From an uncultured Myxococcales bacterium (GTDB lineage: Bacteria; Myxococcota_A; Polyangia; Palsa-1104; JAEUJZ01): DNA of 64,000 nucleotides. The translations under genes and the position numbers were made by a program. Of this stretch, positions 125 through 45,074 are shown one piece after another (the first letter of the stretch is position 1; every line of letters begins with the position of its first letter). The DNA is taken from the NCBI GenBank assembly GCA_964628555.1, contig CAZVMD010000006.1, positions 1,267-65,266 on the forward strand, in the 5' to 3' direction. Below the pieces are notes generated by a model. It saw only the letters and a program-made list of their open reading frames with translations. It made no database searches and was not told the origin of the DNA.

Positions 125-973
125 TCACTGGGTTAATAGGGGCTGCGTTCGGTACTTGATGACGCGAAACAGCAGAACTCCCCCCGCCACACTGCGCGGC
201 GAGGGGTTGGGCAAGGGACCAAGGAGGCGTTCTTCCCCGAGCCGCAGCTCCAGATAGGCACGTGGCTGCTGTCGGCAGGAGATGGGCTGATCGGACAGGA
301 AGCGGACGCAGCGCAGGGTCGGGTACTGCTGCAAGAGCTGCGTGGCCGTGCTGTCGCTGCTGTCCGGTTCACTGCGCAGGTCGGCGCGATTGCTGTCGGA
401 AAAGCTGAGCAGATCGTCGCTGCCGCTGGGGGCTGCATCGACGATGTGCAGCTGGCTGGGGTCGGTGCTTGAGCTGGTAACGCAGTAGTAGGCCCAGCGC
501 AGCTCCCGGGCGCGGAATGGCAGGAAGTAGGTCGCTGGCTGCACCGTCAGGCCATCCGCGGCGACGGGGCAGGGAAGCTCGATGGCCGCGAAGCAGCCGG
601 TCGGCAGCAGCGGATCGGGACTCTCGGCCAGGACTAGCTGGCCAGCCGGCAGACTAGCTGCATCCCCAGGCACGAAGAGCGGTGCCGACTGCGCTGCAAG
701 CTCGCTCAGATCGGTGAACAGCGAGAACTCCGGATTCTGCAGCACCAGCTCAAAGCGCAGCGTGGTTGGCGCCGAAAAAGGAATGGGCAGCTTACCCGCC
801 GCATCAACCGGAGCGAGGATGCGCAGCCGGCCGGCATCAGCGCGGACCAGGCAGCGATGCCCATCGAGCAGGTGGCGGCTGGCGGCGCTCACGCTGATCG
901 CTAGATCCGGACAGACACCGTCGCTGTAGTAGGCGTGCTGCAGGCTGATCTGCAGCAGCGTGATGTAGCTCAT
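125..973 (-). CDS. Hypothetical protein; eCIS-associated by position between the DUF4255 gene and the sheath gene
   Basis: 282-aa ORF. Its ATG at 971-973 overlaps the stop of the upstream DUF4255-like gene (ATGA coupling). No recognisable motif. Confidence 0.45.
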   Translation of the reverse strand: MSYITLLQISLQHAYYSDGVCPDLAISVSAASRHLLDGHRCLVRADAGRLRILAPVDAAGKLPIPFSAPTTLRFELVLQNPEFSLFTDLSELAAQSAPLFVPGDAASLPAGQLVLAESPDPLLPTGCFAAIELPCPVAADGLTVQPATYFLPFRARELRWAYYCVTSSSTDPSQLHIVDAAPSGSDDLLSFSDSNRADLRSEPDSSDSTATQLLQQYPTLRCVRFLSDQPISCRQQPRAYLELRLGEERLLGPLPNPSPRSVAGGVLLFRVIKYRTQPLLTQ

Positions 974-1548
974 CGCCGGATCCTCAGCTGCAGCTCGCCA
1001 ACCGGCGCGATGGCACTGGTCTCTTCGTCTTGATAGACGACCATGCGCGCCTTGTAGAGCAGGGCTGGCAGGTACGGAACGCGCAGCATGCTAAACAGGT
1101 TGTGCTGCTCTGCGATGGGCAGCGTGACCAGCTCCATCATGATCTTTTCGATCCGGCTGCTCAGCGCAGGAGCGTTGCTGTGATCGAAGACCCGCTGGCT
1201 GGCGAAGAACTGCAGGACCAGCGACAAGTAGCGCAGCGCCTGCTCGTAGTCTTTGAAGCGGGCGGCAAAAAGGAGGTACAGGTTAAGGTGAATCGGCGGC
1301 TGCGTTCGCTGCGTCGTCCCGTCGGCGAGCTGGACACGATACGGGTCGCCGCTGCGCAGCGAAAACTCCTGCTCCAGATTGACCAGGAGCAGGGTGATCG
1401 AGCCAAGCTTGAAGTCCAGATTCTCTAGTGACTCGCAGCCGACAAACGCCACCTGTCCCTGATCGCTCTGCGCGCCTTCGACTCCCAAGACGCTGCTCAG
1501 GTGGCCGTTAAGCGTGTCTCGCAGTAGCACGAAAACTTCGTTCAACAT
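970..1548 (-). CDS. DUF4255 (Pvc16/Afp16 N-terminal domain)-like protein; putative tail terminator/cap of a contractile injection system
   Basis: 192 aa; the N-terminus MLNEVFVLLRDTLNGHL resembles the start of DUF4255 proteins. The size is typical. It is first in a minus-strand operon followed by the sheath, with a divergent AAA ATPase. A G-rich RBS precedes it. Confidence 0.5.
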   Translation of the reverse strand: MLNEVFVLLRDTLNGHLSSVLGVEGAQSDQGQVAFVGCESLENLDFKLGSITLLLVNLEQEFSLRSGDPYRVQLADGTTQRTQPPIHLNLYLLFAARFKDYEQALRYLSLVLQFFASQRVFDHSNAPALSSRIEKIMMELVTLPIAEQHNLFSMLRVPYLPALLYKARMVVYQDEETSAIAPVGELQLRIRR

Positions 1549-1765
1549 CCGCTGCGCGTTCCCCCACGGCGCTGATTCCTAAGTCAGATCGCCCTGGCTC
1601 TTTAGCCTGCTGGGCGCAGCAGCGAGCGTCTATTTGATTTCTTTGAAGTCAGCTTTTGGTTTCAAGCAAAGCTTCCTCGGTCGGCTTGGCTGTAGCGTGG
1701 GAAGCGACGCGTGGGGCGATCGCGCGCCGCTTCGTATCGCTCGTCGTGCGGCATGGGAACGAGGA

Positions 1766-3115
1766 ATGAGCACACTTCTGGCAAACGCTGCTGCCTTGGA
1801 ACAAGACCTCGCCTGGTTCGGGGAGGTCCTGGCGACTCGCTTGCGCCTGCACTTCACTCCGAATGAGCCGGGGCCGGCCACTGTCCTGGACCTTCCGCCC
1901 CCCGACCTTAGCCAGTCTGATTCGGAGTATGCTCGCTTCCTCCTGCACTATCGCTTCACGTTTGCCGAGCGCTTGGCGCTGGTCTTGGCGCTGGTGCCCC
2001 AGCTGCGGCCACAGCTCCTCGACCCGTTTTACACGCGCAGTGCCGGCACCGATCGCCGCGTCACTGACTTTGGCGGCTACTGCGAGCGCGGCGATGGCGA
2101 ATTCCTGCCGACCGGCGAGACGCTGGCCTTCCTGCTGGGCGGTGCCGACCTGGCGCTGCGCTTTCACTGTCAGCTGCTCTTCGATCCGCAGCATGTGTTT
2201 AGCCGACACCGGATTCTGCGCAGTGCCGCGCTGGTTCCTGAGCTGCCGATCATGAAGTCGCCGCTCCTGATCTCGGAGGAGCTCCTGTCTCTGTTTACGA
2301 CCGGACAGGAGCGGCGGCCGGCCTTCGGGGCCAGCTTCCCGGCCATGGCCATCGAGACCAACCTGACCTGGGACGATGTTGTGCTCTCGCCCGCGACGCG
2401 GAAGCAGGTGGAGGAGATCCGCACCTTCATCGACTACGGTTCGCAGCTTCTCAACGAGTGGGGCATGGCCGCCAAGCTGCGGCCTGGCTACCGCGCGCTG
2501 TTTTATGGCCCACCCGGCACCGGCAAGACCATGACCGCCTGCCTCGTCGGCAAGTCGAGCGGACGCGACGTCTACAAGGTCGATCTATCGCTGGTGATGT
2601 CCAAGTACATCGGCGAGACCGAAAAGAACCTGGCTCGCGTGTTCGATCAGGCCGAGCACAAAAACTGGATCCTGTTTTTCGATGAAGCCGATGCGCTGTT
2701 CGGCAAGCGCAGCGAGACCCGCGACGCGCACGATCGCTACGCTAACCAAGAAGTCGCTTTCCTACTGCAGCGCATCGAGACTTTCGACGGCATCGCCATT
2801 TTGGCCTCGAACCTGCGCGACAACGTCGATGATGCCTTCGCCCGTCGCTTCGAGTCCGTGATCTACTTCCCAATGCCGCGCGCCGAAGAGCGCCTGCGGC
2901 TGTGGCGACAAGGCTTCTCGCCGCAGGCCACGCTCGATCGCTCCGTCGATCTGGAGGCCCTGGCTCGCGAGCGCGTCCTGTCGGGCGGCGCGATCATGAA
3001 CGTCATCCGCTACGCCTCGCTGCAGGCGCTAAAGGGCGGCGGTCGTCCGATTACCGCCGACGATCTGCTGGTGGGAATTCAGCGTGAGCTGGCCAAAGAG
3101 GGCAAGGCGGCCTGA
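1766..3115 (+). CDS. AAA+ ATPase (Afp15/Pvc15-like eCIS-associated ATPase candidate)
   Basis: Walker A GPPGTGKT, Walker B ILFFDEADALF, sensor/arginine-finger region SNLRDNVDDAFARRFE. ~240-aa N-terminal non-ATPase domain. Divergent from the DUF4255 gene. The listed ORF starts at a TTG at 1634; the ATG at 1766 is preferred but uncertain. Confidence 0.8.
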   Translation: MSTLLANAAALEQDLAWFGEVLATRLRLHFTPNEPGPATVLDLPPPDLSQSDSEYARFLLHYRFTFAERLALVLALVPQLRPQLLDPFYTRSAGTDRRVTDFGGYCERGDGEFLPTGETLAFLLGGADLALRFHCQLLFDPQHVFSRHRILRSAALVPELPIMKSPLLISEELLSLFTTGQERRPAFGASFPAMAIETNLTWDDVVLSPATRKQVEEIRTFIDYGSQLLNEWGMAAKLRPGYRALFYGPPGTGKTMTACLVGKSSGRDVYKVDLSLVMSKYIGETEKNLARVFDQAEHKNWILFFDEADALFGKRSETRDAHDRYANQEVAFLLQRIETFDGIAILASNLRDNVDDAFARRFESVIYFPMPRAEERLRLWRQGFSPQATLDRSVDLEALARERVLSGGAIMNVIRYASLQALKGGGRPITADDLLVGIQRELAKEGKAA

Positions 3116-6173: not shown

Positions 6174-6503
6174 CTACTGGCTGGGGCCCGCTGGCGGCTG
6201 GCTGCTGTGCTCGCGCTTGCGCTGCAGGAACAGCTTGATGGTCGCCAGGATCGCGATCGCTGAAAGGCCCGGGCAGACGATGCCGAAGAAGATCCACAGC
6301 AGCATGCGGTTAAAGCCCTGCTGCTCAGCGCTGCCGAGGCGACCATTCCAGTACAAGATCGAGAGCCCAACGCCGAGGGCGCTAAACAACAGATAGGTTC
6401 CGCTGCGCGCCTGACCGGCCTGGGGCGAGCCCGGGCTGGCTGGATTCTTGGTCAGTGCCTGCTTGCTGCTGCTGTCTTTGCCGCTGTCTTGATCGGTGGC
6501 CAT
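6174..6503 (-). CDS. Small two-TM membrane protein (paralog of 11975..12184)
   Basis: Hydrophilic S/K/D-rich N-terminus, then 2 TM helices. Clear homology to the 69-aa ORF at 11975..12184 (RSGxYLLFSAxGxxLxIxxW...LLxxIxxGIxxPGxxxIxILxxIKxF). ATG at 6503 with AGGGA nearby; the alternative ATG is at 6533. Confidence 0.5.
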   Translation of the reverse strand: MATDQDSGKDSSSKQALTKNPASPGSPQAGQARSGTYLLFSALGVGLSILYWNGRLGSAEQQGFNRMLLWIFFGIVCPGLSAIAILATIKLFLQRKREHSSQPPAGPSQ

Positions 6504-6647
6504 GTCCCTGTCCCATCCCGCTGCACGGCTCATGATATCTTCAAATGCGGCCGGCTTCGGCTGCGCGTTTGCAGGCGGGTGCTAGGCGTCTGTCTGGCCC
6601 AGCCTTCGATGCCGCGGCGGCCGGCTCTGTCCCACGACTCCGTCACC

Positions 6648-7853
6648 ATGATTCGCTATGGCTCCAGCTTTCGCGCGGCCGATATCAAGACGACGCTGGC
6701 GCATGCGCAGGCCATCGCGCCCCAGCTGGGTATCAGCCGCGTCACCGAGGTGACGTACCTCGATCGCATCGGCGTCCCGGTCTTCGTCGCGATTCGGCCG
6801 GATGCGCAGCCGGGATCGGTATGTGTCAGCGCCGGCAAGGGCATGACCGCGGCCGAGGCCCGCATCGGGGCCTACATGGAGGCCATCGAGCTAGCCTGGG
6901 CTGAGTACCGGCGCACCCAGTTTCCCCTGCAGAGCCTGCCCAGCGGCGAGGTCCTCGACGGGCGCAGCCGCCCCGAGGCCCTGCTGGATTTCTGTCCGAG
7001 CTGGGGGCAGTTTCTCGACCGCAGCGCCGAGATGTGGTGTGTGCCGGCGCAAGACATCGTCAGCGGCGAGACCTGGCAGATTCCCGCCGAGACGGTCTTT
7101 CATCCGCTGCCGGCTGAGCTGGGCGGCGCGCGCTACTTCGGCTCGGGCAGCAATGGCCTGGCCTCGGGCAACAGCGTGCTGGAGGCGACGGTGCACGCGC
7201 TCGCTGAGGTCATCGAGCGCGATGTCACCAGCTTCCACAACGCCCGCGATGCCTCGCGCCTGATCGCCGCCGCCAGCCTGCCGGAGCCGATCGCCGGCCT
7301 GCTTGCTCACCTCAACGCGCAGGGCTTTGAGCTGGTGGTGCGCGGTCTACCGAACCCCTTTGGCCTGCCGTGCTTTATGGCGGTCTCGTTCGATCGCACC
7401 CAGCCTGAGGTGACGCTGCGCGGCGACGGCTGTCATCCGGTGCGCTCGATTGCGCTGTTGCGCGCGGTGACTGAGACCATCCAGTGCCGGCTGAGCCTGA
7501 TCCATGGCGGCCGCGACGATCTGGCCAATGTCCATCGTCCCTTCAAGGCCCTATCGCCCGAGGAAAAAGCCGAGGTCTATGCCAAGGTGCTGGGCGGACT
7601 CCTGCGCGATCCGCAGCCGCTGGCCTACACCGACCTGCCCGATCACGCCGACCAGATCAGCAGCCTGGAGTCTTGCCTGGGGCTCCTCGTTGCTCGCCTG
7701 CACGCCCTTGGCTTTCCCCGCATCCTGCGTTTTGTCTACACGCCGCCGGACTACCCGGTGCAGGTGGTGCGCATCGTCGTGCCGGGGCTGGAGTGCTATT
7801 CGCGCGACACCAATCGCATCGGTCCGCGGCTGCGGAGGTATCTGCGTGTCTGA
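6648..7853 (+). CDS. ycaO: YcaO-domain protein (TfuA-partnered, thioamide-forming type)
   Basis: YcaO hallmark GSGSNGLASGNSVLEATVHALAEVIERD, plus IGVPVFVAIRPD and GAYMEAIE. Stop overlaps the tfuA start. The start may instead be the ATG at 6609. Confidence 0.85.
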   Translation: MIRYGSSFRAADIKTTLAHAQAIAPQLGISRVTEVTYLDRIGVPVFVAIRPDAQPGSVCVSAGKGMTAAEARIGAYMEAIELAWAEYRRTQFPLQSLPSGEVLDGRSRPEALLDFCPSWGQFLDRSAEMWCVPAQDIVSGETWQIPAETVFHPLPAELGGARYFGSGSNGLASGNSVLEATVHALAEVIERDVTSFHNARDASRLIAAASLPEPIAGLLAHLNAQGFELVVRGLPNPFGLPCFMAVSFDRTQPEVTLRGDGCHPVRSIALLRAVTETIQCRLSLIHGGRDDLANVHRPFKALSPEEKAEVYAKVLGGLLRDPQPLAYTDLPDHADQISSLESCLGLLVARLHALGFPRILRFVYTPPDYPVQVVRIVVPGLECYSRDTNRIGPRLRRYLRV

Positions 7854-8541
7854 GGTCTGGCTGTACGCCGGTCCGACGCTGCTGCGCGCGCAGGCCATCG
7901 AGCCCGGGCTGTCGCTTGCGGGCATCTCGGTGCTGCCGCCGATTGGCCGCGGTGATCTGCCACGTCTGCTGCGCTCGCCGGCGGCGGCCCGGCCGGGCTG
8001 CATCGTCATTGTCGATGGCCTGTTTCATCTGCGGCTTTCGGTGGGGCACGCCGAGCTGCGCAGCGCGCTGGTCAGCGGCTTTCGCGTCTTCGGCCTGTCT
8101 TCGATGGGCGCGATTCGAGCCCGCGAGATGGCGCACCTGGGGATGGAGGGCTTCGGGCAGATCTATGAGCTGTACTGCCAGGCCGGGATCGACTTTCGCG
8201 ACGACGAAGTGACGCTGCTGCACGACCCCGAGCCGCCGTATCGCGAGCTCTCTGAGCCGCTTGTGCACCTGCGAGCCGCGGTGCGAGATCTGGTCCAGCT
8301 GGGGCTCTTGCCAGAACAGGCCGGCGAGGCGGTGATCGAGAAGCTGTCCCGCTCGTGGTTCGGCGATCGCACGCTGCCGATCCTGCGCGCGCTGCTTTCT
8401 GCGCAGGGGCTCGACGCGGCGGCGCTGGCGGCGATCGATGCCCGCTTGGCGGACTTCAACCGCTATCGACAGAAGGCGCACGATCTAATCGCCTTCCTGC
8501 AGCAGCGACCGGATCGTCAGCCGCGCTCTACTGCGCCCTAG
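7846..8541 (+). CDS. tfuA: TfuA-like protein (YcaO partner for peptide backbone thioamidation)
   Basis: GTG at 7846 overlaps the ycaO stop by 8 nt. N-terminus VWLYAGPTL...LPPIGRGDL and the length (~230 aa) match the TfuA family. Co-oriented and coupled with ycaO. Confidence 0.75.
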   Translation: MSEVWLYAGPTLLRAQAIEPGLSLAGISVLPPIGRGDLPRLLRSPAAARPGCIVIVDGLFHLRLSVGHAELRSALVSGFRVFGLSSMGAIRAREMAHLGMEGFGQIYELYCQAGIDFRDDEVTLLHDPEPPYRELSEPLVHLRAAVRDLVQLGLLPEQAGEAVIEKLSRSWFGDRTLPILRALLSAQGLDAAALAAIDARLADFNRYRQKAHDLIAFLQQRPDRQPRSTAP

Positions 8542-9764
8542 CTTGCGTGTTGCTGTGCTGCGGCCAGCGCGGCGTAGAAGCGCTCGCTGGGCGAAGGCAG
8601 CGCCCGCACTTGTGCGGTGTACAGAGCTTGCCGCTGTCGCTGCAGCGCTGCGCCCGCTTCGCCCAGGAGCTCGTCTAGCGTCGCCAGAAAACCGGCCTCG
8701 TCCAGGACGTCGACGCCGGCGATGGCGTCGAGGTATGGGTTGCCCTGCAGCACCGGCGCAAGGAGCTGCGACAGGCTGAGCGGCCAAGCGCGAAACGGGT
8801 ACAGCCCGCCGGCGCGTGCGACAAAGGTCTGGGCGGCCGCGGACGCCGGGGCCCGACTGACATCAGCAAGGCTGCCGATTAGCACCGGGACCTGTGCGGC
8901 CAGCGCGGCCATGACAGTTGTGGCGGCGATGTTGAAGCTGAGCAGCAGATCACTGGCCGCAAGCAGGCGCAGAAACTCGCTCGCCGGCTGCTGCGGTAGG
9001 TGGCGATAGCGGTCGCCTAGCCCGGCCGCTGCGGCGAACGGCTCGGGACCGATGTGCAGGACCCGCAGCGGGGTCGCCCCTTTGGGGTTCGCCAGATAGT
9101 GCGAAAGATAGGTACAGATCAGCTCGGGCAGCGCGTCCGCCATGCGCTGGCGGACCGGATGCAGCTGCTGCGAGGCGTGCTGCCACGCCGCGGATGGCCA
9201 GAAGATCAGCCTCTCACCGGGGCTGACACCGAGCGCCTGTCGCACCTGCGCTCGCTCCGCGGGCTCCAGAGTGATGGGCGGGGGTAGGGCATTGTAGGCG
9301 CCTGCGGCGGTCGGACGGACAAACGGCACCGGCACCAAGCGGTGGAGCACTTGCTTGACGTCTGGCCCGAGCTGAAATGTCTCGGGGTGGTAGTCCCAGT
9401 GCAGGCCGGCCTCGGGGACATTCCAGACATCGAGCGCAAGGACCGGAATCCCCGACTGCAGGAAGGTGTCAAAGCGACGGCCGCTGATGCCGAAGAACGT
9501 GTACACCGCGACCAGATCAATCAGCACGATGCTGTCGCAGCCCTCGCTGCGTGCGGTGTCGAGGATGGCTTCGTCCAAGCGGCTGAGTGCCAGATCAATG
9601 CGGCCATAGCGCACAGGCGCGGCGCGGATCGTCTTCTGTAGACCTGACGGCCCCAAGAACAGGACGCGGTCCCCCGCTGCGTGCAGGGCAGTGGCGAGCT
9701 GAACCCCCAGCAAGGCCTCGCCAAATCCCATGGCTGTAGCGGCAACAAACAAGTGCTTTCGCAT
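8538..9764 (-). CDS. GT-B-fold glycosyltransferase-like protein (degenerate; function unknown)
   Basis: ~409 aa. N-terminal Rossmann-like VLFLGPSGL. A C-terminal segment SDLLLSFNIAATTVMAALAAQVPVL resembles the MurG/GT1 donor-binding helix pattern. ATG at 9764. Convergent with tfuA and overlapping it by 4 nt. Confidence 0.4.
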   Translation of the reverse strand: MRKHLFVAATAMGFGEALLGVQLATALHAAGDRVLFLGPSGLQKTIRAAPVRYGRIDLALSRLDEAILDTARSEGCDSIVLIDLVAVYTFFGISGRRFDTFLQSGIPVLALDVWNVPEAGLHWDYHPETFQLGPDVKQVLHRLVPVPFVRPTAAGAYNALPPPITLEPAERAQVRQALGVSPGERLIFWPSAAWQHASQQLHPVRQRMADALPELICTYLSHYLANPKGATPLRVLHIGPEPFAAAAGLGDRYRHLPQQPASEFLRLLAASDLLLSFNIAATTVMAALAAQVPVLIGSLADVSRAPASAAAQTFVARAGGLYPFRAWPLSLSQLLAPVLQGNPYLDAIAGVDVLDEAGFLATLDELLGEAGAALQRQRQALYTAQVRALPSPSERFYAALAAAQQHAS

Positions 9765-9910
9765 GGATACGCCCACCCAGGGTTCATCGTAGCACGCCTC
9801 GTCGCTGACTAGGTTCCGCTGCCGAGCCCACGTGCTATCATCGACCGCGGGGCAATTCACGCACCTTCCGCGGGCGGCTGCCGATGACTCGGTTGAAGGG
9901 GTAACACTAC

Positions 9911-10735
9911 ATGGGCGAGCACGGGAACGAACACCAGGGTGGAGAGCACGGCGGTGAGCATCATGGGCCGCTGGGCCTCATGGGTCATATCGCGCACTAT
10001 GTCGGGGCGGGTGCACACGCGCTGCATCACCCGGCGGTGCACCATGCTCTGGAGCACGCCGGCAAGTTCGGCCACGCCGTCGCCGGTCCGCTAGGCAAGG
10101 CGCTGCCCTATGTCGGCGCCGTCGCTGGCACAGCGCAGGCCGGGATCGAAGGCTACGAGGCCTACGAGGCCTTCAAGCACGGTGGCGTGCATAACGATCA
10201 GGCCTGGGAGAAGGTCGGCGGCTCGGTGCTGGGTGGCGCGGGCGCGGCGCTCAGCTTCACGCCCTACGGCGCGGCGCTGGGACTCGGTGAGCTGGCCGTC
10301 GATGGCCTCGGCGCGCTGTCCGGCAAGGTGCTGGGCGAAGATGCGTCGTTTAACTCGGCGCAGGTAGTCGGTGGCGCCATCCGCGGCATGGTCGGCGACA
10401 AGTCGATGGGCTGGAAGGCCGGGACCGCGGTCTCGAACGCGCTCGGTGGCGGCTTCTGGGGCAACGCCGCGGGTGTGGCCACGGGAGCGGTGACCAACGC
10501 CGTCGCGGCGCCGGTAAACGCGCTCAACACGGTCGGCGGTGGCCTCGTCAACTGGGTCGGCAATGCGCTCGACTCGACGCCCGGCAAGCAGGACTACTGG
10601 GGCCAGGGCCTCAACGCAGTGGGCGGCGCGATCACCAGCGGGGCTAGCGCGGTCGGTGGTGCGCTCACCCGAGGCGCTGGCGCCGTCGGTCGCGGGCTGG
10701 GTCGCGCAGCCAGCTGGGTCGGCGGGCTCTTCTAA
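9911..10735 (+). CDS. Histidine-rich N-terminus / glycine-alanine-rich protein (274 aa), function unknown
   Basis: Good RBS GAAGGGG 9 nt upstream of the ATG. The first ~60 aa contain ~15 His (HGNEHQGGEHGGEHHG...HALHHPAVHHALEH). The rest is Gly/Ala-rich with GxxxG-type spacing. No signal peptide. Divergent from the GT-B-like gene. Confidence 0.5.
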   Translation: MGEHGNEHQGGEHGGEHHGPLGLMGHIAHYVGAGAHALHHPAVHHALEHAGKFGHAVAGPLGKALPYVGAVAGTAQAGIEGYEAYEAFKHGGVHNDQAWEKVGGSVLGGAGAALSFTPYGAALGLGELAVDGLGALSGKVLGEDASFNSAQVVGGAIRGMVGDKSMGWKAGTAVSNALGGGFWGNAAGVATGAVTNAVAAPVNALNTVGGGLVNWVGNALDSTPGKQDYWGQGLNAVGGAITSGASAVGGALTRGAGAVGRGLGRAASWVGGLF

Positions 10736-10969
10736 GCCGCGATCGTACTCGGCCGTCTCGTCGCTCCGTCGCCAGGGCCCGTCGGGCCCTCGCTTCCCCC
10801 TCATCCCTTCACATTCCTGATGCCCTTCTTCCGCTGGCTGGCCGAAGTGCAGCAGCGCAGGTCACGTCGCGCACTTCCGAACCGCTGGTTCTCGCTACTG
10901 CACGCGCTGCCGCAGCCAGCTGTCTTGGCGGCCAGCCTCTGAATCTTCGCCGTCGGCGACGCGGCATTC

Positions 10970-11875
10970 ATGTACACTTTTGCTATGCAGCTTGTGAATA
11001 TGCTCTCGGGCTGGGCCAAGATGCCGATGGCCGATGGGATTGTCCTTGTACCGCAAGAGGGGCCGCAAGCCGGGGGGATTCGCATCCATGAGCGCTGTCG
11101 CCCGCTGCGCCGCTTCAGCGCCATCCTGACCGACATCATCGCGGGTCTGCCCGAGCACCATACGTCGCTGCAGATCGGCCCGCTGCAGCGGCTGGTGACG
11201 CACGAAGGCGAGCATGCCGGACTGATCACGCTGACCGCCAAGACCCAGGACGGGGGACCGGCCGAGCGCACCATCGGCATCATCCTCGGCGATGACAGCT
11301 ACGCCATGGTGGATGGCGCGGTGATCAAGCCCGAGCGCTTTGCCGAGGTGCGGCAGATGGTGCAGCTGATCACCGAAGGCTTCTTCCTGGGGCTTGGGGA
11401 TCAGCGTCGCCGCCGCTACTTCTTTACCCCGCCTTCTGGCTGGCGCGGCCTGGGGCGAGTTCACACCAGCCGCTACTACCATCCGCAGTACCCGCGCGAG
11501 CCGGCCATCATTACGGTCCACGATACTCGGCCGGCCACGGTCACCGTTTCTGAGGTCACGGATCGGCTGCTGTTTCAGGACTTCACTGGCGGTCTAGAGC
11601 GCGATCCGCCGGCGCCGCCGACCCCGATCGTGGCGCGCAGTGGGCTGGCGGGTCAGATTGTGCGGATCAGCGGGCACCATCCCTCGGGTCGGCACCTGGC
11701 CTTCGTGCAGGCCACGCTGGTCGACAGTCGCTTTTCGTACACCATCGTGCTGGAGACGACGGTGGAGGCGCTGCCCAAGCACCTGCCCACCCTGACCGAG
11801 ATGGCGCTGTCGATCGTGCCTGTGCCACCGCGCAAGACGCAGAGTGCGAGTGCGCTGATTGCCTGGGCCGATTAG
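10970..11875 (+). CDS. Hypothetical protein (301 aa)
   Basis: Long ORF with ordinary amino-acid composition and no recognisable motif. Several in-frame ATGs (10970-11027), so the start is uncertain. Confidence 0.45.
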   Translation: MYTFAMQLVNMLSGWAKMPMADGIVLVPQEGPQAGGIRIHERCRPLRRFSAILTDIIAGLPEHHTSLQIGPLQRLVTHEGEHAGLITLTAKTQDGGPAERTIGIILGDDSYAMVDGAVIKPERFAEVRQMVQLITEGFFLGLGDQRRRRYFFTPPSGWRGLGRVHTSRYYHPQYPREPAIITVHDTRPATVTVSEVTDRLLFQDFTGGLERDPPAPPTPIVARSGLAGQIVRISGHHPSGRHLAFVQATLVDSRFSYTIVLETTVEALPKHLPTLTEMALSIVPVPPRKTQSASALIAWAD

Positions 11876-11974: not shown

Positions 11975-12184
11975 ATGGGCGAAGCGAGATCGGGTCTATA
12001 TCTGCTGTTTAGCGCCATCGGCATCGCGCTGGCGATCGCGTTCTGGTATCCGCGGTTGCCGCCGGAAAAACGTCAGGGCTGGCTGAAGCTCCTCGTGACC
12101 ATTTACTTGGGCATCACGATCCCGGGCGTGGTGGTGATTGGCATCCTGTGGTTGATCAAAAAGTTCGTCCTGCATAACGCCTAG
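11975..12184 (+). CDS. Small two-TM membrane protein (paralog of 6174..6503)
   Basis: 69 aa, two hydrophobic helices, homologous to the C-terminal 2/3 of the 6174..6503 product. Lies in inverted orientation relative to its paralog. Confidence 0.5.
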   Translation: MGEARSGLYLLFSAIGIALAIAFWYPRLPPEKRQGWLKLLVTIYLGITIPGVVVIGILWLIKKFVLHNA

Positions 12185-12209: not shown

Positions 12210-12710
12210 ATGAAGTTGCAACTGCCGGTTCGTCCCGAGTGGCCGCAGAAACAGATCCCGCAGGGCTTGGTGGTACAGCTTGCCCCCGAGGTCACGCTGT
12301 TTAGCGAAGTCTGCCTGCCGCTGCCCTTTGACCTGCAGCGCTGGGGCGATCAGGTCGTGATGTTTAACGTGCCGCCGGGGCAGCTCGTGGTCCACGCGGT
12401 GACCGACGGCGTGACGCGCGCTGGCTGGCCGGTGACGCTGGTCAAGTCGGATGTCCTCGACCGACCCGGCGGGCAGGCACAGCTACGCCGCATTCACGCG
12501 CTGTATCGCTTTACGCAGTACGGCGCCGTGGCTGTCGTCGTCGGGCCGCCGTCGCGCATGGATGCGCTGGAAGGCGACTTGGTCAACTTCTTGGCTGAAG
12601 GCCAGCCCGACTTTGCCAGCGATGAGGTGATCGCCCTGGCCGAGGTGTTCGAGGGCATAGCCGAGGTCGTGCTCACCCCCGCCGGCGCGCCGCCTGCCCC
12701 CAGCCCCTAG
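12210..12710 (+). CDS. Hypothetical protein (166 aa), immediately downstream of the small membrane protein
   Basis: ORF 25 nt after the previous stop. No recognisable motif. Confidence 0.45.
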   Translation: MKLQLPVRPEWPQKQIPQGLVVQLAPEVTLFSEVCLPLPFDLQRWGDQVVMFNVPPGQLVVHAVTDGVTRAGWPVTLVKSDVLDRPGGQAQLRRIHALYRFTQYGAVAVVVGPPSRMDALEGDLVNFLAEGQPDFASDEVIALAEVFEGIAEVVLTPAGAPPAPSP

Positions 12711-18505: not shown

Positions 18506-19567
18506 CTAGGTCAGGTAGCCACGGCGCTGCTGATCCCGCTCGATCGAGCGGAACAGGGCGCCAAAGTTGCCTTCGCCAAAGGACAGGTGGTTGCGACGCT
18601 GGATCAGCTCGATGAAGATCGGGCCGATGAGGTTCTTGGTGAAGATCTGCAGCAGGTAGCCCTGGTCATCGCCATCGACCAGGACGTTGCGCTGCTGGAT
18701 CTCGGCGTGGTCTTCGCGCACGTTGGGGACGCGCTGAAACACCTCGCGATAGTAGTCGTCATCGATGTCGAGAAACTGCACCGGCGTTCCCTCTAGGCCG
18801 CGCAGCGAGGCCAAGATGTCGTCGGTCAGGAAGGCCAGGTGCTGTATGCCGGGGCCCTTGTACTCTTCGAGGTACTCGTTGATCTGGCTGCCCTTCTCGG
18901 TGCCTTCGTTGATCGGGATACAGAACGAGCCATCGGGCGAGCGCAGCGCGTAGGACGTCAGGCCGGTCTTTACGCCACGGATGTCGAAGTAGCGCACCTC
19001 GCGGAAGCCGAAGACATCGCGGTAAAAGCCGCCCCACTTTAGGAGCTCGCCGCGCGGCACGTTGTTCGTCAGATGATCCATCTGAGTGAAGCCCTTGTCG
19101 GCCACCCGATCCGGCTCGGCTAGCTCGACAAAGCCCAGCTGCGGCCAGGTGTCGCGCCCATCGACGAAATAGATCAGCGAGTCGCCGATGCCGCGCACCG
19201 CTGGCAGCCGGCGGCCATCGGCTCGTAGCAGATCGCCCTGGCCCGCCTGTGCACCGCGCGACACGGCGACGCTGGCCGCTTGCTCGGCATCGGCGGCCCG
19301 CCAGCCCATCGCAGCGATGCAGGGGCCGTGCAGCGTCGCAAACTCGGCGGAAAAGCCGTCTTTGCTGCGGTCCAAGAGCAGATAGATCTGCCCCTGCTCG
19401 TACAAGTCGATGGCCAGGGCTGCGTGGCGGCGCGTGCGCGAGAAGCCAAAGGCCAGAAACAGCTGGTGCAGCGCGTCGGGGTTGGGCGAGGCAAACACGG
19501 CAAAGGCAAAGCCGCGCAGCGCGCAGGGATTGTCAGGGGTGGGCACGGTCTGTGGCGTCGAGTTCAT
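18506..19567 (-). CDS. hppD: 4-hydroxyphenylpyruvate dioxygenase
   Basis: 353 aa from the ATG at 19567. The C-terminal module ...GIQHLAF...LLQIFTKNLIGPIFIELIQR...GEGNFGALFRSIE is typical of HPPD. Confidence 0.85.
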   Translation of the reverse strand: MNSTPQTVPTPDNPCALRGFAFAVFASPNPDALHQLFLAFGFSRTRRHAALAIDLYEQGQIYLLLDRSKDGFSAEFATLHGPCIAAMGWRAADAEQAASVAVSRGAQAGQGDLLRADGRRLPAVRGIGDSLIYFVDGRDTWPQLGFVELAEPDRVADKGFTQMDHLTNNVPRGELLKWGGFYRDVFGFREVRYFDIRGVKTGLTSYALRSPDGSFCIPINEGTEKGSQINEYLEEYKGPGIQHLAFLTDDILASLRGLEGTPVQFLDIDDDYYREVFQRVPNVREDHAEIQQRNVLVDGDDQGYLLQIFTKNLIGPIFIELIQRRNHLSFGEGNFGALFRSIERDQQRRGYLT

Positions 19568-19631
19568 GCGCTTAGTCCAGGGGTCGGGGGCAAGGAGCTG
19601 CGATCGGGGGTCGAAGGTCCGCACCGGCAGC

Positions 19632-20759
19632 TTAGCGGCTCTCTGCCGCTTGCCAGCTCTTCCAATAGTCGGCGATCTCAAGGCTTGCTGCCGTCTGACA
19701 GATGGCAAGCGGCCGCCGCGTATCGACCATCACCGCGACTTCTTCGGTGCGCTGCGCGCTGGGGGTGCGCTGGGCAGCGCGACGCTGGGGTCCGTGATGG
19801 ATGCCCTGCGGGTGGAAGGTCAGCATGCCCGGCTTGATCCCGTCGCGGCTGAAGAATTCGCCGGCGTGATAGAACAGCACCTCATCGAAGTCGATGTTCG
19901 AGTGATAAAACGGCACCTTCAGCGCGGCCGGGTCGCCGTTTTCCAGCGGGCGCGGCGCGAAGGTGCAGATGGCGACGTTGTGGGCGATGAACGTCGTATG
20001 GGCCGACGGTGGCAGGTGATAGCGATCCGACAGCACCGGTCGAATATCGCGCACGTTGAGCTGCAGCACCGACAGCGTGCCCTTCCAGCCCACGACATCC
20101 AGCGGGTCGTGCGGATAGAAGACCGAAGTCAGCTCGCCCTGGCGCTTGATCACCACGCGCCACTCGTGCGGCCGACAGCCGGCCAGGCCAGCCGGAAGCG
20201 GCGTGCGCTCCTCGGGGGAGGGGACCCGCAAGAGCGCCGGATCGAACAGCGCGTGCTGACCCAGCATGCCGCGCTCGGGCAGACCGAGCTCGCCCGTCGT
20301 CTCAACTACTAGGAGCTGAGTCGGCGTGCTGGGCGCCAAGCGATACAGCGTGCCGCGCGGAATCAAAAGATAGTCCCCGGCTTCGTACGTCAGCGAGCCG
20401 AAGTCGGTGGCCAGCCGACCGCTGCCGACGTGCACGAACAGCAGCTCATCGCCGTCGGCGTTGCGGAACAGGTAGGGCATCGGCTGGCTCAGCGTCACAT
20501 AGGACAGACGACAGTCGCCGTTGTGCAGCAGATCGACGCGGCTCTGCAGATAGTCGGGACCGTCGGCGGTCTTGAGGTCATAAAGCCGCGGCCGCAGCGG
20601 GCCTTCGATGCGCGTCCAGGCGACCGGCGGATGCTCACGATACAGGTGGGCATAGCGGCCAAAGAAGCCGTTGCGGGCGTACTCCTCTTCAACGGTGCCG
20701 GCCGGCAAGCCGACGTGCGCCTGGCTGGCGACGCGACCACGAATGTAGGGAATCGACAT
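19632..20759 (-). CDS. hmgA: Homogentisate 1,2-dioxygenase
   Basis: 375 aa with cupin-like segments. Adjacent to hppD on the same strand. The composition and length fit HmgA. Confidence 0.75.
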   Translation of the reverse strand: MSIPYIRGRVASQAHVGLPAGTVEEEYARNGFFGRYAHLYREHPPVAWTRIEGPLRPRLYDLKTADGPDYLQSRVDLLHNGDCRLSYVTLSQPMPYLFRNADGDELLFVHVGSGRLATDFGSLTYEAGDYLLIPRGTLYRLAPSTPTQLLVVETTGELGLPERGMLGQHALFDPALLRVPSPEERTPLPAGLAGCRPHEWRVVIKRQGELTSVFYPHDPLDVVGWKGTLSVLQLNVRDIRPVLSDRYHLPPSAHTTFIAHNVAICTFAPRPLENGDPAALKVPFYHSNIDFDEVLFYHAGEFFSRDGIKPGMLTFHPQGIHHGPQRRAAQRTPSAQRTEEVAVMVDTRRPLAICQTAASLEIADYWKSWQAAESR

Positions 20760-20825
20760 GGCTCCAGGATGGCGGTTTTACATGCGCGAAAAAACTGCGA
20801 TGTTTCGTGCATCATAGTCTAAGAA

Positions 20826-21725
20826 ATGCACAAAGAATCGCCGCCAAACCCGGCCCCGATCACCCTCGAACAGGCCCGCGCGCTCGACGCGCTGGAGCGC
20901 AGCGGAACCTTCGCTGGGGCAGCGGCGGTCCTGGGGCGTGGACACAGCTCGGTGCTGTACTTGCTGCGTACGCTGGAGGAAAGCCTGGGCTTTCCCCTGC
21001 TCGATCGCTCGCAGTACCGCACCCAGCTCAATGCGCGCGGGCAGCGCGTCCTTGAGAGCTGCCGCTTGCTGCTGCAGGCCGAGGCGGGGCTGGCCGCGAC
21101 GGTGCAAGAGCTGCGGGCGGGCTGGGAGCCCAAGCTGGCCGTGGTCTTCGATGGCATCGTGCCCGTCGAGCCGCTCTTGCGGGCAGTCGGTCGCTTGATC
21201 CGCGACAAGGTGCCGACCCGCATCGATGTCCGCGCCGAATTCCTGGGCGGCGTCGAAGAGGCCTTCGAGCGCACGGCAGCTGACCTGATGATCGCCGTCC
21301 TGCCACCGCGCAGCTCCGGTCTGCGCAGCGTGGCGCTGGCGCCGCTGCCCGCCTCGCTGGTGGCGCGGGCTGACCACCCGCTGGCGCGCGGCCAGCACGA
21401 CGAGCGCTCGCTGGATGCCCACCTGCTCCTGACCGTGCGCGGCTCGGACCCGCGGCTGCAGCTGTCGACCGCCGGCATTGAGGCCCACTCAACGGTGCAT
21501 CTGAACGACTTTGCTTCGAAGCGCGGGGCGATCTTGGCGGGCATCGGCTACGGCTGGATGCCCGATGCGCTGATCGACTCAGAGCTACGGCGCAAGAAGC
21601 TGCGGCGCATCCGCTGGACTCGGCCCTCGCGGCATGTCTTCCATCCTCGGCTCTATCACCGCGGGCAGCCGGGTCCGGCGACGCGACAGCTGATCGCGGC
21701 CCTGACTCAGGCTGCGGAGGTCTGA
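20826..21725 (+). CDS. LysR-family transcriptional regulator, divergent from hmgA-hppD
   Basis: N-terminal HTH ITLEQARALDALERSGTFAGAAAVLGRGHSSVLYLLRTLEESLGFPLL. LysR substrate-binding domain. ~300 aa. Confidence 0.85.
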   Translation: MHKESPPNPAPITLEQARALDALERSGTFAGAAAVLGRGHSSVLYLLRTLEESLGFPLLDRSQYRTQLNARGQRVLESCRLLLQAEAGLAATVQELRAGWEPKLAVVFDGIVPVEPLLRAVGRLIRDKVPTRIDVRAEFLGGVEEAFERTAADLMIAVLPPRSSGLRSVALAPLPASLVARADHPLARGQHDERSLDAHLLLTVRGSDPRLQLSTAGIEAHSTVHLNDFASKRGAILAGIGYGWMPDALIDSELRRKKLRRIRWTRPSRHVFHPRLYHRGQPGPATRQLIAALTQAAEV

Positions 21726-21914
21726 GCTCCATGACGGTCGCGCTGTGGCTCCAGCGGCCGAGTACACGGCGAGAAGCACGCGCACCCTTGCGTCGGGGTG
21801 TACAAGCCCCGGGCGGCTCTGCGAAAATGGCGGCGGCTGTTTCACTGGCGCTAACCTCGCGTCGGCGCAACGCTTTTTGACCTGCCCCCCTCTGCCTAGG
21901 CAAACGAGGCCACC

Positions 21915-42496: not shown

Positions 42497-42743
42497 GCCG
42501 GAAGTCCGTGCGCTGAATTTGGGCCCAGGACATGGGCTGATAGAGATGCCAAGACCGCCACAAACGCAGCTTATCACGCTCGCTTTTTTGGTTGCCAAGC
42601 CAATCGCGCCCGTGATAGGAAGGCCAACACCAAGATGCGTCTTCTATGCTCACAGTGGAAGGATGGGAAGATTTCACCCCCTTCTTCAAGGGCCTGCTTC
42701 TCTCTTGCAGCGAACCAGCAACCGAGCTTGGATGTGGTGAGCG

Positions 42744-44858: not shown

Positions 44859-45074
44859 GATTCTTCTCGTCAATCTTGAGTAAGCACAGCGCCTGGGTGC
44901 TATGCACCCGTGCTGCCTGGCCTGGACGCTGCTGGCGTGAGCAAGCCTGCGCCAAGCCAGTTCTGCACATCGGTGCACAGCGGAGCGTGAGCGGACGACT
45001 GCGCGCAAAGAACCCCGGCAGCCAGCCGTACCGTTCCAGATTTCTTTTCGCTGTCATTGTGATAGAGTGACTAA

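What the first reader, a model, noticed from the sequence alone, without database searches (positions are those of the whole stretch)
9911..10735. His-rich N-terminus plus Gly/Ala-rich body: candidate YcaO-TfuA substrate, metal-binding or glycine-zipper membrane-active protein
274 aa with a strong RBS. The first ~60 residues carry ~15 His in HxxxH/HH patterns typical of Ni/Zn/Cu-binding stretches. The remainder is Gly/Ala/Val/Asn-rich with GxxxG spacing, as in glycine-zipper pore-forming or bacteriocin-like proteins. It has no signal peptide. Because TfuA-type YcaOs thioamidate Gly-adjacent backbone positions, a Gly-rich neighbour is a plausible substrate, though this is speculation. The gene is divergently paired with the GT-B-like gene.
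Basis: inference. Interest (0 to 1): 0.65.

Follow-up and report, generated by a model that had tools for sequence, protein, structure and literature searches.

The report
Glycine-rich protein partnered with YcaO enzyme
This is a real gene for a previously unnamed family of glycine-rich helical proteins that repeatedly sits next to a YcaO backbone-modifying enzyme in myxobacteria-like genomes, which makes it a good and testable candidate for only the third known kind of protein to receive a sulfur-for-oxygen (thioamide) backbone modification.

Summary
The ORF at 9911-10735 (+) is a real gene under purifying selection (87 synonymous against 13 non-synonymous codon changes versus a relative). 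Its His-rich start (14 His in 60 residues) and its 23% Gly are far beyond chance. GxxxG spacing is not: 14 observed against 14.5 expected.

The protein has no Pfam or NCBIfam match and no PDB match by sequence or fold. It founds an unannotated family with 74 representatives at 50% clustering. The family has a variable disordered N-terminus, a conserved ~150-residue helical core (pLDDT about 90), 11-residue C-terminal repeats and an aromatic last residue, often ...SW.

In 6 of 11 independent lineages a family member lies beside a YcaO gene. The arrangements differ, and in four of them the two genes are immediate neighbours. Here the YcaO is McrA-like and is translationally coupled to TfuA.

Other recurring partners are:
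- a 301-aa tandem PsbP/DUF1795-fold protein, whose best fold matches are the T6SS immunity protein TplEi and Eag chaperones;
- a 166-aa protein;
- small 2-TM proteins;
- DUF6365.

Four lineages keep some or all of these partners without a YcaO.

Best reading: the protein is a substrate of YcaO(-TfuA) thioamidation and is handled by binding proteins. This is not proven. The glycine-zipper and metal-binding readings are not supported for the family as a whole.

The parts
6174..6533 (-). Small predicted 2-TM protein, paralogue A. The ORF is 119 aa; the real start is probably the ATG near 6503. It is divergent from ycaO.
   Evidence: 48-50% identical to the 69-aa protein at 11975-12184. A homologue is also divergent from ycaO in L002. 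GC3 is 0.82.
6489..7853 (+). YcaO, an ATP-dependent enzyme that activates backbone amides. The longest ORF is given; the likely start is the ATG at 6609 or 6648.
   Evidence: Pfam YcaO, E 4.5e-59. The best NCBIfam hit is TIGR03266, the McrA-glycine thioamidation YcaO, E 5e-63 over its full length, at 213 bits against a cutoff of 365.
7846..8541 (+). TfuA. The GTG start follows a GGAGG and overlaps the ycaO stop by 8 nt, so the two genes are translationally coupled.
   Evidence: Pfam TfuA, E 9e-32. NCBIfam ThioGly_TfuA_rel, E 8e-34, 117 bits against a cutoff of 235. Start mapped; the alignment with L002 TfuA begins at this position.
8538..9860 (-). DUF6365 protein. The longest ORF is given; the likely start is Met33 at 9764. 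It is convergent with and overlaps tfuA, and is divergent from the target.
   Evidence: Pfam PF19892, E 3.4e-53. Homologues of 40-50% identity lie next to target-family genes in L002, L003 and L017. A GT-B fold was not demonstrated.
9765..9910 (.). Divergent intergenic region of about 146 bp between DUF6365 and the target. The target's Shine-Dalgarno-like GAAGGGG is at 9895-9901.
   Evidence: Sequence read. No sigma-70-type consensus promoter was found.
9911..10735 (+). The finding: a 274-aa Gly/Ala-rich helical protein and member of an unannotated family.
9911..10090 (+). Residues 1-60, the acidic, Gly- and His-rich N-terminal region (14 His). Residues 1-18 have pLDDT below 50. Residues 20-58 are modelled as helices at pLDDT 64-69.
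   Evidence: The His-richness is specific to this clade.
10091..10555 (+). Residues 61-215, the conserved family core. It includes LGKALPYVGA, LGGAGAALSFTPYG and FNSxQVVGGAIRGxVGDKSxG. It is modelled as a helical bundle at pLDDT 86-94 for residues 61-160.
   Evidence: Alignments; AF2. G134 and G154 are nearly invariant across 77 sequences.
10616..10732 (+). Residues 236-274: three 11-residue repeats (AVGGAITSGAS / AVGGALTRGAG / AVGRGLGRAAS) followed by an aromatic C-terminal tail, WVGGLF.
   Evidence: Read from the sequence. The copy number of 11- and 22-residue repeats varies between homologues. 34 of 77 members end in ...[S/D]W; others end in GMY or GLF.
10970..11875 (+). p301, a tandem PsbP/DUF1795-fold protein. 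Invariant motifs are T-x-EGEHA, GDD and RRRRY.
   Evidence: AF2 pLDDT 81. Foldseek against PDB: TplEi 5h7z E 8.5e-7, EagT6 6xrf, SciW 6xrb, PsbP, DcrB and Tsi3. It is adjacent to target-family genes in L002, L003, L013/16, L014 and L017.
11975..12184 (+). Small predicted 2-TM protein, paralogue B (69 aa).
   Evidence: In L003 it is fused to the p166 homologue as one 251-aa gene.
12210..12710 (+). p166, a conserved module protein of unknown fold.
   Evidence: Homologues of 37-52% identity occur in L002, L003 and L017 (two copies in L017). There are no Pfam hits. hhalign against p301 was not significant.

Best explanation
The gene encodes a member of an unannotated family of Gly/Ala-rich, all-helical cytoplasmically made proteins. 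The family has a disordered acidic, Gly- and His-rich N-terminus, a conserved ~150-residue helical core, a variable number of 11-residue C-terminal repeats and an aromatic last residue.

The protein belongs to a mobile gene module whose recurring members are:
- a McrA-type YcaO, here translationally coupled to TfuA;
- DUF6365;
- a tandem PsbP/DUF1795-fold protein (p301);
- a 166-aa protein (p166);
- small 2-TM proteins.

Most likely mechanism, all of it inferred:
1. The folded or partly folded protein itself, not a short peptide, is the substrate of the YcaO.
2. YcaO uses ATP to O-phosphorylate one or a few backbone amides.
3. TfuA supplies sulfide equivalents, and the amides become thioamides.
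4. p301 and p166 bind the small-residue helices as holders, acting as chaperones or immunity proteins.
5. The small membrane proteins tether or receive the complex.

Shown here: the gene is real and conserved, the family exists, and it is adjacent to YcaO, p301 and DUF6365 across rearranged loci. Inferred: that it is the substrate, that the chemistry is thioamidation, and the roles of p301, p166 and the 2-TM proteins.
For: The gene is real. Codon differences against L007 are 87 synonymous to 13 non-synonymous.

The family is real. The profile search gave 74 representatives at 50% clustering, 51 of them with E<=1e-10. All named members are 'hypothetical protein'. There is no Pfam, NCBIfam, PADLOC or PHROG match.

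Linkage to YcaO:
- The window clade and L002 (59% identity) carry YcaO and TfuA within two genes of the target.
- In L013/L016 and L015 the YcaO is divergent from the target with about 20-60 bp between them.
- In L014 and L010 the YcaO is convergent, with the stop codons 14-31 bp apart.
- Those four family members are only 35-44% identical to the window protein, while their YcaOs are 45-55% identical to the window YcaO. The pairing is therefore old and has survived rearrangement.
- In those four loci no other ORF fits between YcaO and the target.

Enzyme type. The YcaO and TfuA best match the NCBIfam models for the McrA-glycine thioamidation pair, which acts on a whole protein. TfuA overlaps the ycaO stop.

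Precedent. YcaO thioamidates the whole proteins McrA and uL16. The authors of the uL16 study state that further protein substrates are likely to remain undiscovered (PMC13063428).

The substrate-like protein is folded. The AF2 core has pLDDT 86-94.

Binder hypothesis. The p301 model matches TplEi, EagT6 and SciW. Eag chaperones grip small-residue (GxxxG/A) helices (PMC7773334).
Against: - No chemical evidence of any modification exists.
- YcaO is not obligatory. L003/L004 (DUF6365 + target + p301 + TM-p166), L017/L018 (the same partners, with no YcaO within 7-10 kb), one contig without DNA, and L009 (a DUF2515 fusion on a 42-kb contig) all lack it.
- TfuA was verified only in the window clade and L002. 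In L010 and L014 nothing follows ycaO. The other contigs are too short to tell.
- The YcaO and TfuA scores are below the NCBIfam equivalog cutoffs.
- No motif separates YcaO-linked members from YcaO-less members cleanly.
- A small 2-TM protein is also divergent from ycaO both here and in L002, so it is an alternative substrate.
- p301's fold class is widespread and has many functions. It matches no DUF1795 HMM.
Confidence: 0.45

Rival explanations
1. The protein is a membrane-active toxin or effector such as a bacteriocin or injected payload. Its Gly/Ala-rich helices insert into target membranes. p301 and p166 act as cytoplasmic chaperones or immunity proteins, and the duplicated small 2-TM proteins act as membrane immunity. 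YcaO and DUF6365 only decorate it. This overlaps with the best explanation rather than excluding it.
For: - p301's best whole-length fold match is the T6SS immunity protein TplEi. Its domains match the Eag chaperones EagT6 and SciW, which hold effector TM helices, and the immunity protein Tsi3.
- There are two paralogous small 2-TM proteins in the module.
- The family varies in its N- and C-terminal regions, is patchily distributed, and includes one DUF2515 fusion.
- There is no signal peptide, as for effectors exported by specialised machines.
- An eCIS-like Pvc16_N gene and an AAA ATPase lie 7 kb away.
Against: - No sampled window of the sequence approaches TM hydropathy; the maximum is 0.92.
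- GxxxG is not enriched.
- No T6SS, PAAR, VgrG or Hcp domain was found in the predicted window proteins scanned. The eCIS genes are syntenic only in close relatives.
- The conserved part is the core rather than a delivery domain with a swapped toxin domain.
- No toxin family matches.
Confidence: 0.2
2. The real YcaO-TfuA substrate is something else, either the small 2-TM protein divergent from ycaO or an unannotated short peptide. The Gly-rich protein would then be a co-functioning structural or scaffold component, or the substrate of DUF6365 instead (for example glycosylation of its Ser/Thr-rich repeats).
For: - A small 2-TM gene is divergent from ycaO both in the window and in L002.
- DUF6365, p301 and p166 stay with the target where YcaO is absent.
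- In other loci DUF6365 sits beside NTP-transferase, polysaccharide pyruvyl transferase and GT41 genes. An NTP-transferase follows the target homologue in L015.
Against: - In the four loci where YcaO and the target are immediate neighbours, no small-TM homologue is detectable and there is no room for another ORF between them.
- DUF6365 was not shown to be a glycosyltransferase.
Confidence: 0.2
3. The protein binds or stores metal (Ni, Zn or Cu) through the His-rich N-terminus, possibly with help from thioamide sulfur.
For: There are 14 His in 60 residues, P = 8e-12. The close relatives P0001 and P0002 also have 14. Thioamides are soft ligands (general chemistry).
Against: The His-richness is specific to this clade. 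The family median is 1 His in the first 60 residues, and most members have acidic, Gly-rich N-termini instead. His spacing is not significantly patterned. No metal-handling genes belong to the conserved module.
Confidence: 0.08
4. The protein is an amphipathic 11-mer-repeat protein that binds lipid or membrane surfaces, or protects against stress, in the manner of LEA, apolipoprotein or synuclein proteins. In this reading it is unrelated to YcaO chemistry.
For: The C-terminal 11- and 22-residue repeats vary in number. Small residues show i+11 periodicity at z 2.7. One family member matches Pfam LEA_4 at E 2.5e-4.
Against: The repeats are Gly/Ala/Ser-rich rather than charged and amphipathic. 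This reading does not explain the conserved adjacency to YcaO. The window protein has no LEA_4 match.
Confidence: 0.07

Closest known systems
YcaO(-TfuA) thioamidation of whole proteins: McrA thioglycine in methanogens and uL16 Met82 in E. coli (PMC13063428)
   Same: The YcaO and TfuA here best match the NCBIfam models for the McrA-glycine thioamidation pair. The candidate substrate is a folded protein of several hundred residues, not a leader-core peptide. It is rich in Gly, the residue modified in McrA.
   Different: - The candidate is not homologous to McrA or uL16.
- The enzyme scores are below the equivalog cutoffs.
- The substrate gene is encoded next to the enzyme, as in a RiPP cluster. 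That is not the case for the E. coli uL16 YcaO, where no nearby small ORF is reported (PMC13063428); whether it holds for McrA was not checked here.
- The module carries extra genes: p301, p166, the 2-TM proteins and DUF6365.
- No modification has been demonstrated.
TfuA-YcaO thioamidated RiPP clusters: thioamitides, thiovarsolins and thiopeptide thioamidation (PMC6511847, PMC8120280)
   Same: ycaO and tfuA are adjacent, and a gene-encoded candidate substrate lies next to them. Tailoring-type neighbours such as glycosyltransferases were reported as common in mined clusters.
   Different: - The candidate is 274 aa with a conserved, confidently modelled helical core.
- It has no leader/core organisation.
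- The module contains no protease, exporter or RRE.
- The family also occurs without YcaO.
T6SS Eag (DUF1795) chaperone with prePAAR effector TM-helix pairs, and the two-domain immunity protein TplEi
   Same: p301 is predicted to have the same fold class. TplEi matches over the whole length, and EagT6 and SciW match per domain. It is encoded directly after a protein made of small-residue-rich helices. Eag chaperones grip GxxxG/A helices (PMC7773334).
   Different: - p301 matches no DUF1795 HMM, even at E<=10.
- The target has no PAAR or prePAAR domain.
- The target has no hydrophobic TM segments.
- No T6SS genes were found in the predicted window proteins scanned.
Glycine-zipper membrane toxins and bacteriocins: Tse4/Ssp6-type T6SS effectors, CdzC/D and class II bacteriocins (from general knowledge)
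   Same: High Gly/Ala content, helical prediction, and small membrane proteins encoded nearby that could be immunity proteins.
   Different: GxxxG is at chance level. Hydropathy is far below the TM range. No Gly-zipper or bacteriocin Pfam family matches. The protein is much larger than those peptides.

Membership tests
TfuA-associated, thioamide-forming YcaO system (the enzymes next to the finding) | A YcaO domain protein | tested here: met
   Pfam PF02624, E 4.5e-59, profile positions 1-325 of 325.
TfuA-associated, thioamide-forming YcaO system (the enzymes next to the finding) | tfuA encoded immediately after ycaO | tested here: met
   Pfam TfuA, E 9e-32. The GTG start at 7846 overlaps the ycaO stop at 7853. 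L002 has the same order.
TfuA-associated, thioamide-forming YcaO system (the enzymes next to the finding) | Equivalog-level match to the McrA-glycine thioamidation pair | tested here: not met
   TIGR03266 scored 213 bits against a cutoff of 365. NF033432 scored 117 bits against a cutoff of 235. These are the best hits but fall below the cutoffs, so the pair is related rather than orthologous.
Substrate of a YcaO enzyme | Conserved genomic association with ycaO across diverged, rearranged loci | tested here: met
   6 of 11 independent lineages show it, and in 4 the genes are immediate neighbours in divergent or convergent orientation. It is absent in L003/4, L017/18 and L009, and in the contig, which has no DNA and lies outside the 11.
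Substrate of a YcaO enzyme | A modified backbone position (+15.977 Da thioamide, or an azoline or amidine) | not testable with these tools
   This needs MS of protein co-expressed with the enzymes.
RiPP precursor peptide (leader + core) | A short precursor (typically under ~120 aa) with a leader and a hypervariable core, plus a processing protease or exporter | tested here: not met
   The protein is 274 aa. The most conserved part is a ~150-residue core modelled as a helical bundle at pLDDT ~90. No protease, ABC exporter or RRE is present in the conserved module.
Glycine-zipper membrane proteins and toxins | GxxxG/(small)xxx(small) repeats in excess of what composition gives | tested here: not met
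   GxxxG occurs 14 times against 14.5 in shuffles (z -0.2). Small-xxx-small occurs 54 times against 54.3.
Glycine-zipper membrane proteins and toxins | Hydrophobic membrane-spanning segment(s) | tested here: not met
   The maximum 19-residue Kyte-Doolittle mean among windows stepped every 10 residues is 0.92. The usual TM threshold is about 1.6 (established practice).
Glycine-zipper membrane proteins and toxins | Match to a Gly-zipper or bacteriocin profile | tested here: not met
   No Pfam family matches, even at E<=10.
His-rich metal-binding proteins (Hpn, HypB or UreE-tail type) | A dense His cluster | tested here: met
   14 His in 60 residues, P = 8e-12.
His-rich metal-binding proteins (Hpn, HypB or UreE-tail type) | The His cluster is conserved in homologues, which would imply a function tied to metal | tested here: not met
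   The median is 1 His in the first 60 residues across 77 family members. Only the closest relatives keep 14.
T6SS Eag chaperone (DUF1795) with effector pair | The neighbouring protein has the DUF1795/PsbP-like fold | tested here: met
   The p301 AF2 model has pLDDT 81. Foldseek E-values are 8.5e-7 to 1e-3 against TplEi, EagT6, SciW, PsbP and DcrB.
T6SS Eag chaperone (DUF1795) with effector pair | Sequence membership in DUF1795, and a prePAAR/PAAR effector with T6SS genes present | tested here: not met
   p301, p166 and the target have no Pfam hit at E<=10. No VgrG, PAAR or Hcp hit was found among the predicted window proteins scanned.
GT-B glycosyltransferases (for the divergent neighbour DUF6365) | Detectable similarity to a GT-B family | tested here: inconclusive
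   A profile search against PDB sequences gave nothing at E<0.1.

The most novel reading that the evidence does not exclude
This family is a third, bacterial class of whole-protein substrate for thioamide-forming YcaO enzymes, after McrA and uL16. Unlike those, it would be encoded next to its enzyme in a self-contained, horizontally shuffled module with dedicated PsbP/DUF1795-fold holder proteins, small membrane proteins and a second candidate modifying enzyme (DUF6365). That would make it a protein-sized 'RiPP-like' product whose function (effector, membrane-active agent or metal binder) depends on backbone thioamides.
Probability: 0.35. Interest if true: 0.8.

Novelty: new variant of a known kind. 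Interest (0 to 1): 0.62.

Why it matters
Backbone thioamides are known in only two proteins, McrA and uL16. The group that solved the uL16 case states that more YcaO protein substrates probably remain undiscovered (PMC13063428).

This locus offers a concrete pair to test: a substrate candidate encoded beside its enzyme. The pair could be co-expressed and checked by mass spectrometry in weeks.

If confirmed, the result would:
- extend protein thioamidation to Myxococcota;
- define a new protein family and a new gene module;
- blur the line between RiPP biosynthesis and protein post-translational modification;
- assign a first genomic context to four uncharacterised families (the target, p301, p166 and DUF6365).

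Tried and rejected
Searches on the target that found nothing:
- Pfam at E<=10, NCBIfam, PADLOC and PHROGs gave no family.
- The PDB sequence profile search gave nothing.
- Foldseek of the AF2 model against PDB gave nothing at E<=0.001. The top hits were noise-level membrane proteins.
- tblastn against plasmids gave no match.

- The search for related loci rejected alignments A3 and A2 as too diverse.
- The metagenome scan with A5 returned only 3 short contigs.
- The profile search of the word-indexed database was saturated by low complexity and added only P0115 and P0116.

Negative tests:
- hhalign of p166 against p301 was not significant.
- hhalign of DUF6365 against MurG was not significant.
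- The simple promoter and terminator scans found nothing.

Readings rejected:
- The antisense ORF 10091-10804 as the real gene. Its GC3 is lower, and substitutions concentrate at third positions of the + frame.
- The eCIS genes at the left end as part of the module. They are syntenic only in close relatives.
- The glycine-zipper reading.
- A family-wide metal-binding reading.
- A motif that separates YcaO-linked from YcaO-less members. None was clean.
Full report
**Observation**

The ORF at 9911-10735 (+) exists as described. It is 274 aa with an ATG start, and GAAGGGG lies 9 nt upstream.

It is a real gene.
- GC by codon position is 0.76/0.54/0.83.
- Against the orthologue in L007, 87 codons differ synonymously and 13 non-synonymously. 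Differences by codon position are 7/5/91.
- The overlapping antisense ORF at 10091-10804 has lower GC3 and is a shadow of this gene.

The composition is extreme.
- There are 14 His in the first 60 residues, and all 16 His lie in the first 95. P = 8e-12 against the window's other proteins.
- Gly is 64 of 274 residues (P = 1e-14). Gly+Ala is 41%, the highest of 41 predicted proteins.
- The N-terminus does not resemble a signal peptide. The highest 19-residue hydropathy mean sampled (windows stepped every 10 residues) is 0.92, well below the membrane-spanning range.

One descriptive claim fails the chance test. GxxxG occurs 14 times against 14.5 expected from shuffles (z -0.2), and small-xxx-small is likewise at expectation. 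The only mild signals are Gly at i+8 and small residues at i+11.

**What the protein is**

It matches no known family.
- It matches nothing in Pfam (even at E<=10), NCBIfam, PADLOC or PHROGs.
- It matches no PDB sequence.

It is nevertheless not an orphan.
- The word-indexed search found 8 relatives.
- An exhaustive HMMER profile search found 74 representatives at 50% clustering, 51 of them with E<=1e-10.
- Every member that carries a name is a 'hypothetical protein'.

Alignments and the sequences themselves show a common plan:
- a variable, low-complexity acidic and Gly-rich N-terminus, with or without His;
- a conserved core of about 150 residues, with the motifs LGKALPYVGA, LGGAGAALSFTPYG and F-x-ADS-x-x-GG-x-IRG-x-x-GD-x-S-x-G (G134 and G154 are nearly invariant);
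- a variable number of 11- or 22-residue repeats (three copies of AVGGAITSGAS-like units here);
- an aromatic last residue.

On the last residue, 34 of 77 members end in ...[S/D]W, and others end in ...GMY or ...GLF.

AlphaFold2 with the 77-sequence alignment gives an all-helical model. pLDDT is 86-94 for residues about 61-160, and the tails are poor. Foldseek against the PDB finds nothing at E<=0.001.

The His-rich start is specific to this clade. The family median is 1 His in the first 60 residues, against 14 here.

One member carries an N-terminal DUF2515 domain. One weakly matches LEA_4 and one weakly matches Peptidase_S74.

**Surroundings in the window**

| Coordinates | Strand | Gene | Evidence |
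|---|---|---|---|
| 6174-6533 | - | small 2-TM protein | |
| 6489-7853 | + | YcaO (Pfam E 4.5e-59; likely start 6609 or 6648) | |
| 7846-8541 | + | TfuA (GTG after GGAGG, overlapping the ycaO stop) | |
| 8538-9860 | - | DUF6365 (E 3e-53) | |
| 9911-10735 | + | the target | |
| 10970-11875 | + | p301 | |
| 11975-12184 | + | second small 2-TM paralogue | |
| 12210-12710 | + | p166 | |

The best NCBIfam hits for YcaO and TfuA are the models for the archaeal pair that thioamidates McrA glycine. The matches cover the full length but score below the equivalog cutoffs.

**Comparative context: the key result**

Eleven independent lineages carrying a family member could be examined. A twelfth contig, found through a p301 homologue, has gene calls but no DNA.

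| Lineage | Identity of target to window protein | Arrangement |
|---|---|---|
| Window clade (L001, L006, L007) | 80-94% | whole module syntenic |
| L002 | 59% | TfuA-YcaO, small TM, DUF6365, target, p301, small TM; p166 moved |
| L013/L016 | about 42% | YcaO divergent directly upstream of the target, then p301 |
| L015 | 44% | YcaO divergent directly upstream of the target |
| L014 | 43% | p301, target, then convergent YcaO 14 bp after the target stop |
| L010 | 35% | convergent YcaO directly after the target |
| L003/L004 | 39% | DUF6365, target, p301, a TM-p166 fusion; no YcaO |
| L017/L018 | 36% | target, DUF6365, p166-like, p301-like; no YcaO within 7-10 kb |
| L009 | 34% | DUF2515 fusion; none of the partners |
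| L005/L011 and L012 | 64% and 36% | too short to judge |
| Contig without DNA (extra, not among the 11) | not determined | DUF6365, a 168-aa gene, p301 and a GT41 gene; no YcaO |

In the four loci where YcaO and the target are immediate neighbours, the YcaOs are 45-55% identical to the window YcaO. No other ORF fits between YcaO and the target.

The family is therefore tied to YcaO in 6 of 11 lineages, through several rearrangements. It is tied to p301 in six lineages and to DUF6365 in four, or five counting the contig without DNA. Neither enzyme is obligatory.

DUF6365 also occurs without the family. In L008 (Kofleriaceae) it sits next to an ORF that reads as a sugar-nucleotidyltransferase by inspection.

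**The partners**

p301 has invariant T-x-EGEHA, GDD and RRRRY motifs. Its AF2 model (pLDDT 81) is a tandem PsbP/DUF1795-like fold. The best Foldseek hit is the two-domain T6SS immunity protein TplEi (E 8.5e-7). Its single domains match the Eag chaperones EagT6 and SciW, PsbP, DcrB, LpqN and Tsi3.

Eag chaperones hold effector transmembrane helices by knob-into-hole packing on GxxxG/A motifs (PMC7773334).

p301 matches no DUF1795 HMM. No T6SS genes were found among the predicted window proteins scanned.

The fold of p166 remains unknown; hhalign against p301 was not significant.

DUF6365 could not be shown to be GT-B.

**Mechanism**

Best-supported reading, confidence about 0.45:
- The protein itself is the substrate of the YcaO, with TfuA as sulfide supplier in this clade, and receives one or more backbone thioamides.
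- p301 and p166 bind its small-residue helices.
- The small 2-TM proteins tether or receive it.

What is shown is the reality of the gene, the existence of the family and the conserved adjacency. Substrate status, the chemistry and the partner roles are inferred.

There is precedent for whole-protein substrates. McrA and uL16 are the only two known, and the authors of the uL16 study expect more (PMC13063428).

Rival readings:
- a toxin or effector with chaperone and immunity proteins (0.2; this overlaps with the best reading);
- another YcaO substrate, with the Gly-rich protein as scaffold or DUF6365 substrate (0.2);
- a metal binder (0.08);
- an 11-mer-repeat surface-binding protein (0.07).

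**Comparison with known systems and novelty**

The system works like protein-level YcaO thioamidation, but the candidate substrate is not homologous to McrA or uL16.

It is laid out like a TfuA-YcaO RiPP cluster, but it fails the precursor-peptide definition. The protein is 274 aa with a folded conserved core, and the module has no protease, exporter or RRE.

It fails all three glycine-zipper criteria that were tested.

No paper in the searched library mentions DUF6365 or this pairing. A global TfuA-YcaO mining study noted myxobacterial (Corallococcus) clusters and frequent glycosyltransferases, but not this family (PMC8120280).

I rate it a new variant of a known kind. Interest is 0.62 because it gives a direct experimental handle on an open question.

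Noticed in passing
window 125-3115: A Pvc16_N-domain gene at 970-1548 (-) (E 1e-30), an unknown 282-aa gene at 125-973 (-) and a divergent AAA ATPase at 1634-3115 (+). This suggests the edge of an extracellular contractile injection system (PVC/Afp-like) cluster, about 7 kb from the module. It is syntenic only in the close relatives L001, L006 and L007.
   Followed up: partly
L003 1-16099 / L004 (contig ctg339168_1x_c, 19,424 bp): The contig consists of about 2.1 copies of a 9,245-bp unit. The unit carries DUF6365, a frameshifted target homologue, p301, a TM-p166 fusion, an SDR, Rrf2, an AlkZ-like gene and a 489-aa gene with no Pfam hit. It could be a small circular element assembled as a concatemer, or an assembly artefact.
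   Followed up: no
window 10970-11875 (p301): Four consecutive invariant arginines followed by Tyr (RRRRY, residues 146-150) and an invariant T-x-EGEHA motif (residues 77-83), in homologues down to 27% identity. These look like a binding or catalytic site, which is unexpected for a plain PsbP-like scaffold.
   Followed up: no
L017 3259-4640 and 9551-10825: One locus carries two separate p301-like/p166-like pairs. One of the p166-like domains forms the N-terminus of a 446-aa TPR protein. A YbjN-like gene and an FAD_binding_4 oxidase precede the target homologue.
   Followed up: no
L008 2294-7242; L017 11384-12523; L015 1531-2268; contig: DUF6365 genes or target homologues repeatedly sit near sugar-activating or sugar-transferring genes: NTP_transferase, polysaccharide pyruvyl transferase and Glyco_transf_41. 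This hints that DUF6365 works in glycan or glycoprotein chemistry.
   Followed up: partly
P0009 and P0012 C-termini (L014 798-1628, L015 623-1519): Two family members end in FLSD(E/V)R(L/M)K... instead of ...SW. This resembles the start of the Peptidase_S74 intramolecular-chaperone autocleavage motif. One search reports one weak Peptidase_S74 hit (E 0.0022) in the family.
   Followed up: no
window 6174-6533 and 11975-12184; also the C-termini of p301 homologues: The module holds two paralogous small 2-TM proteins, about 48% identical. Both the target family (...SW) and the p301 family (...HW[SA][ED]) keep a Trp at or near the extreme C-terminus. This may be a shared recognition tag.
   Followed up: no
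window 18506-25471: A homogentisate pathway pair (HPPD-like at 18506-19708 and HgmA-like at 19632-20759), a LysR regulator, a 590-aa spermine/spermidine-synthase-domain protein and an overlapping FAD amine-oxidase-like gene.
   Followed up: no
window 60964-63975 (-) and 42598-45886: The minus-strand ORFs at 60964-63975 have GC1 of 0.85-0.89 and Gln/Arg/Ala-rich translations. They look like shadows of an uncalled plus-strand gene. My crude GC3-based caller placed no gene in 42598-45886.
   Followed up: no
L006 (DAORCZ010000105.1) and cluster members: Near-identical copies of the module are deposited under 'Pseudomonadota bacterium' and 'Plasticicumulans sp.' MAGs. L007 is labelled Myxococcales and the gene content is myxobacterial in style (Ser/Thr kinases, FHA-sigma54 activators, TPR proteins). 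The other labels probably reflect mis-binning or mislabelling.
   Followed up: no
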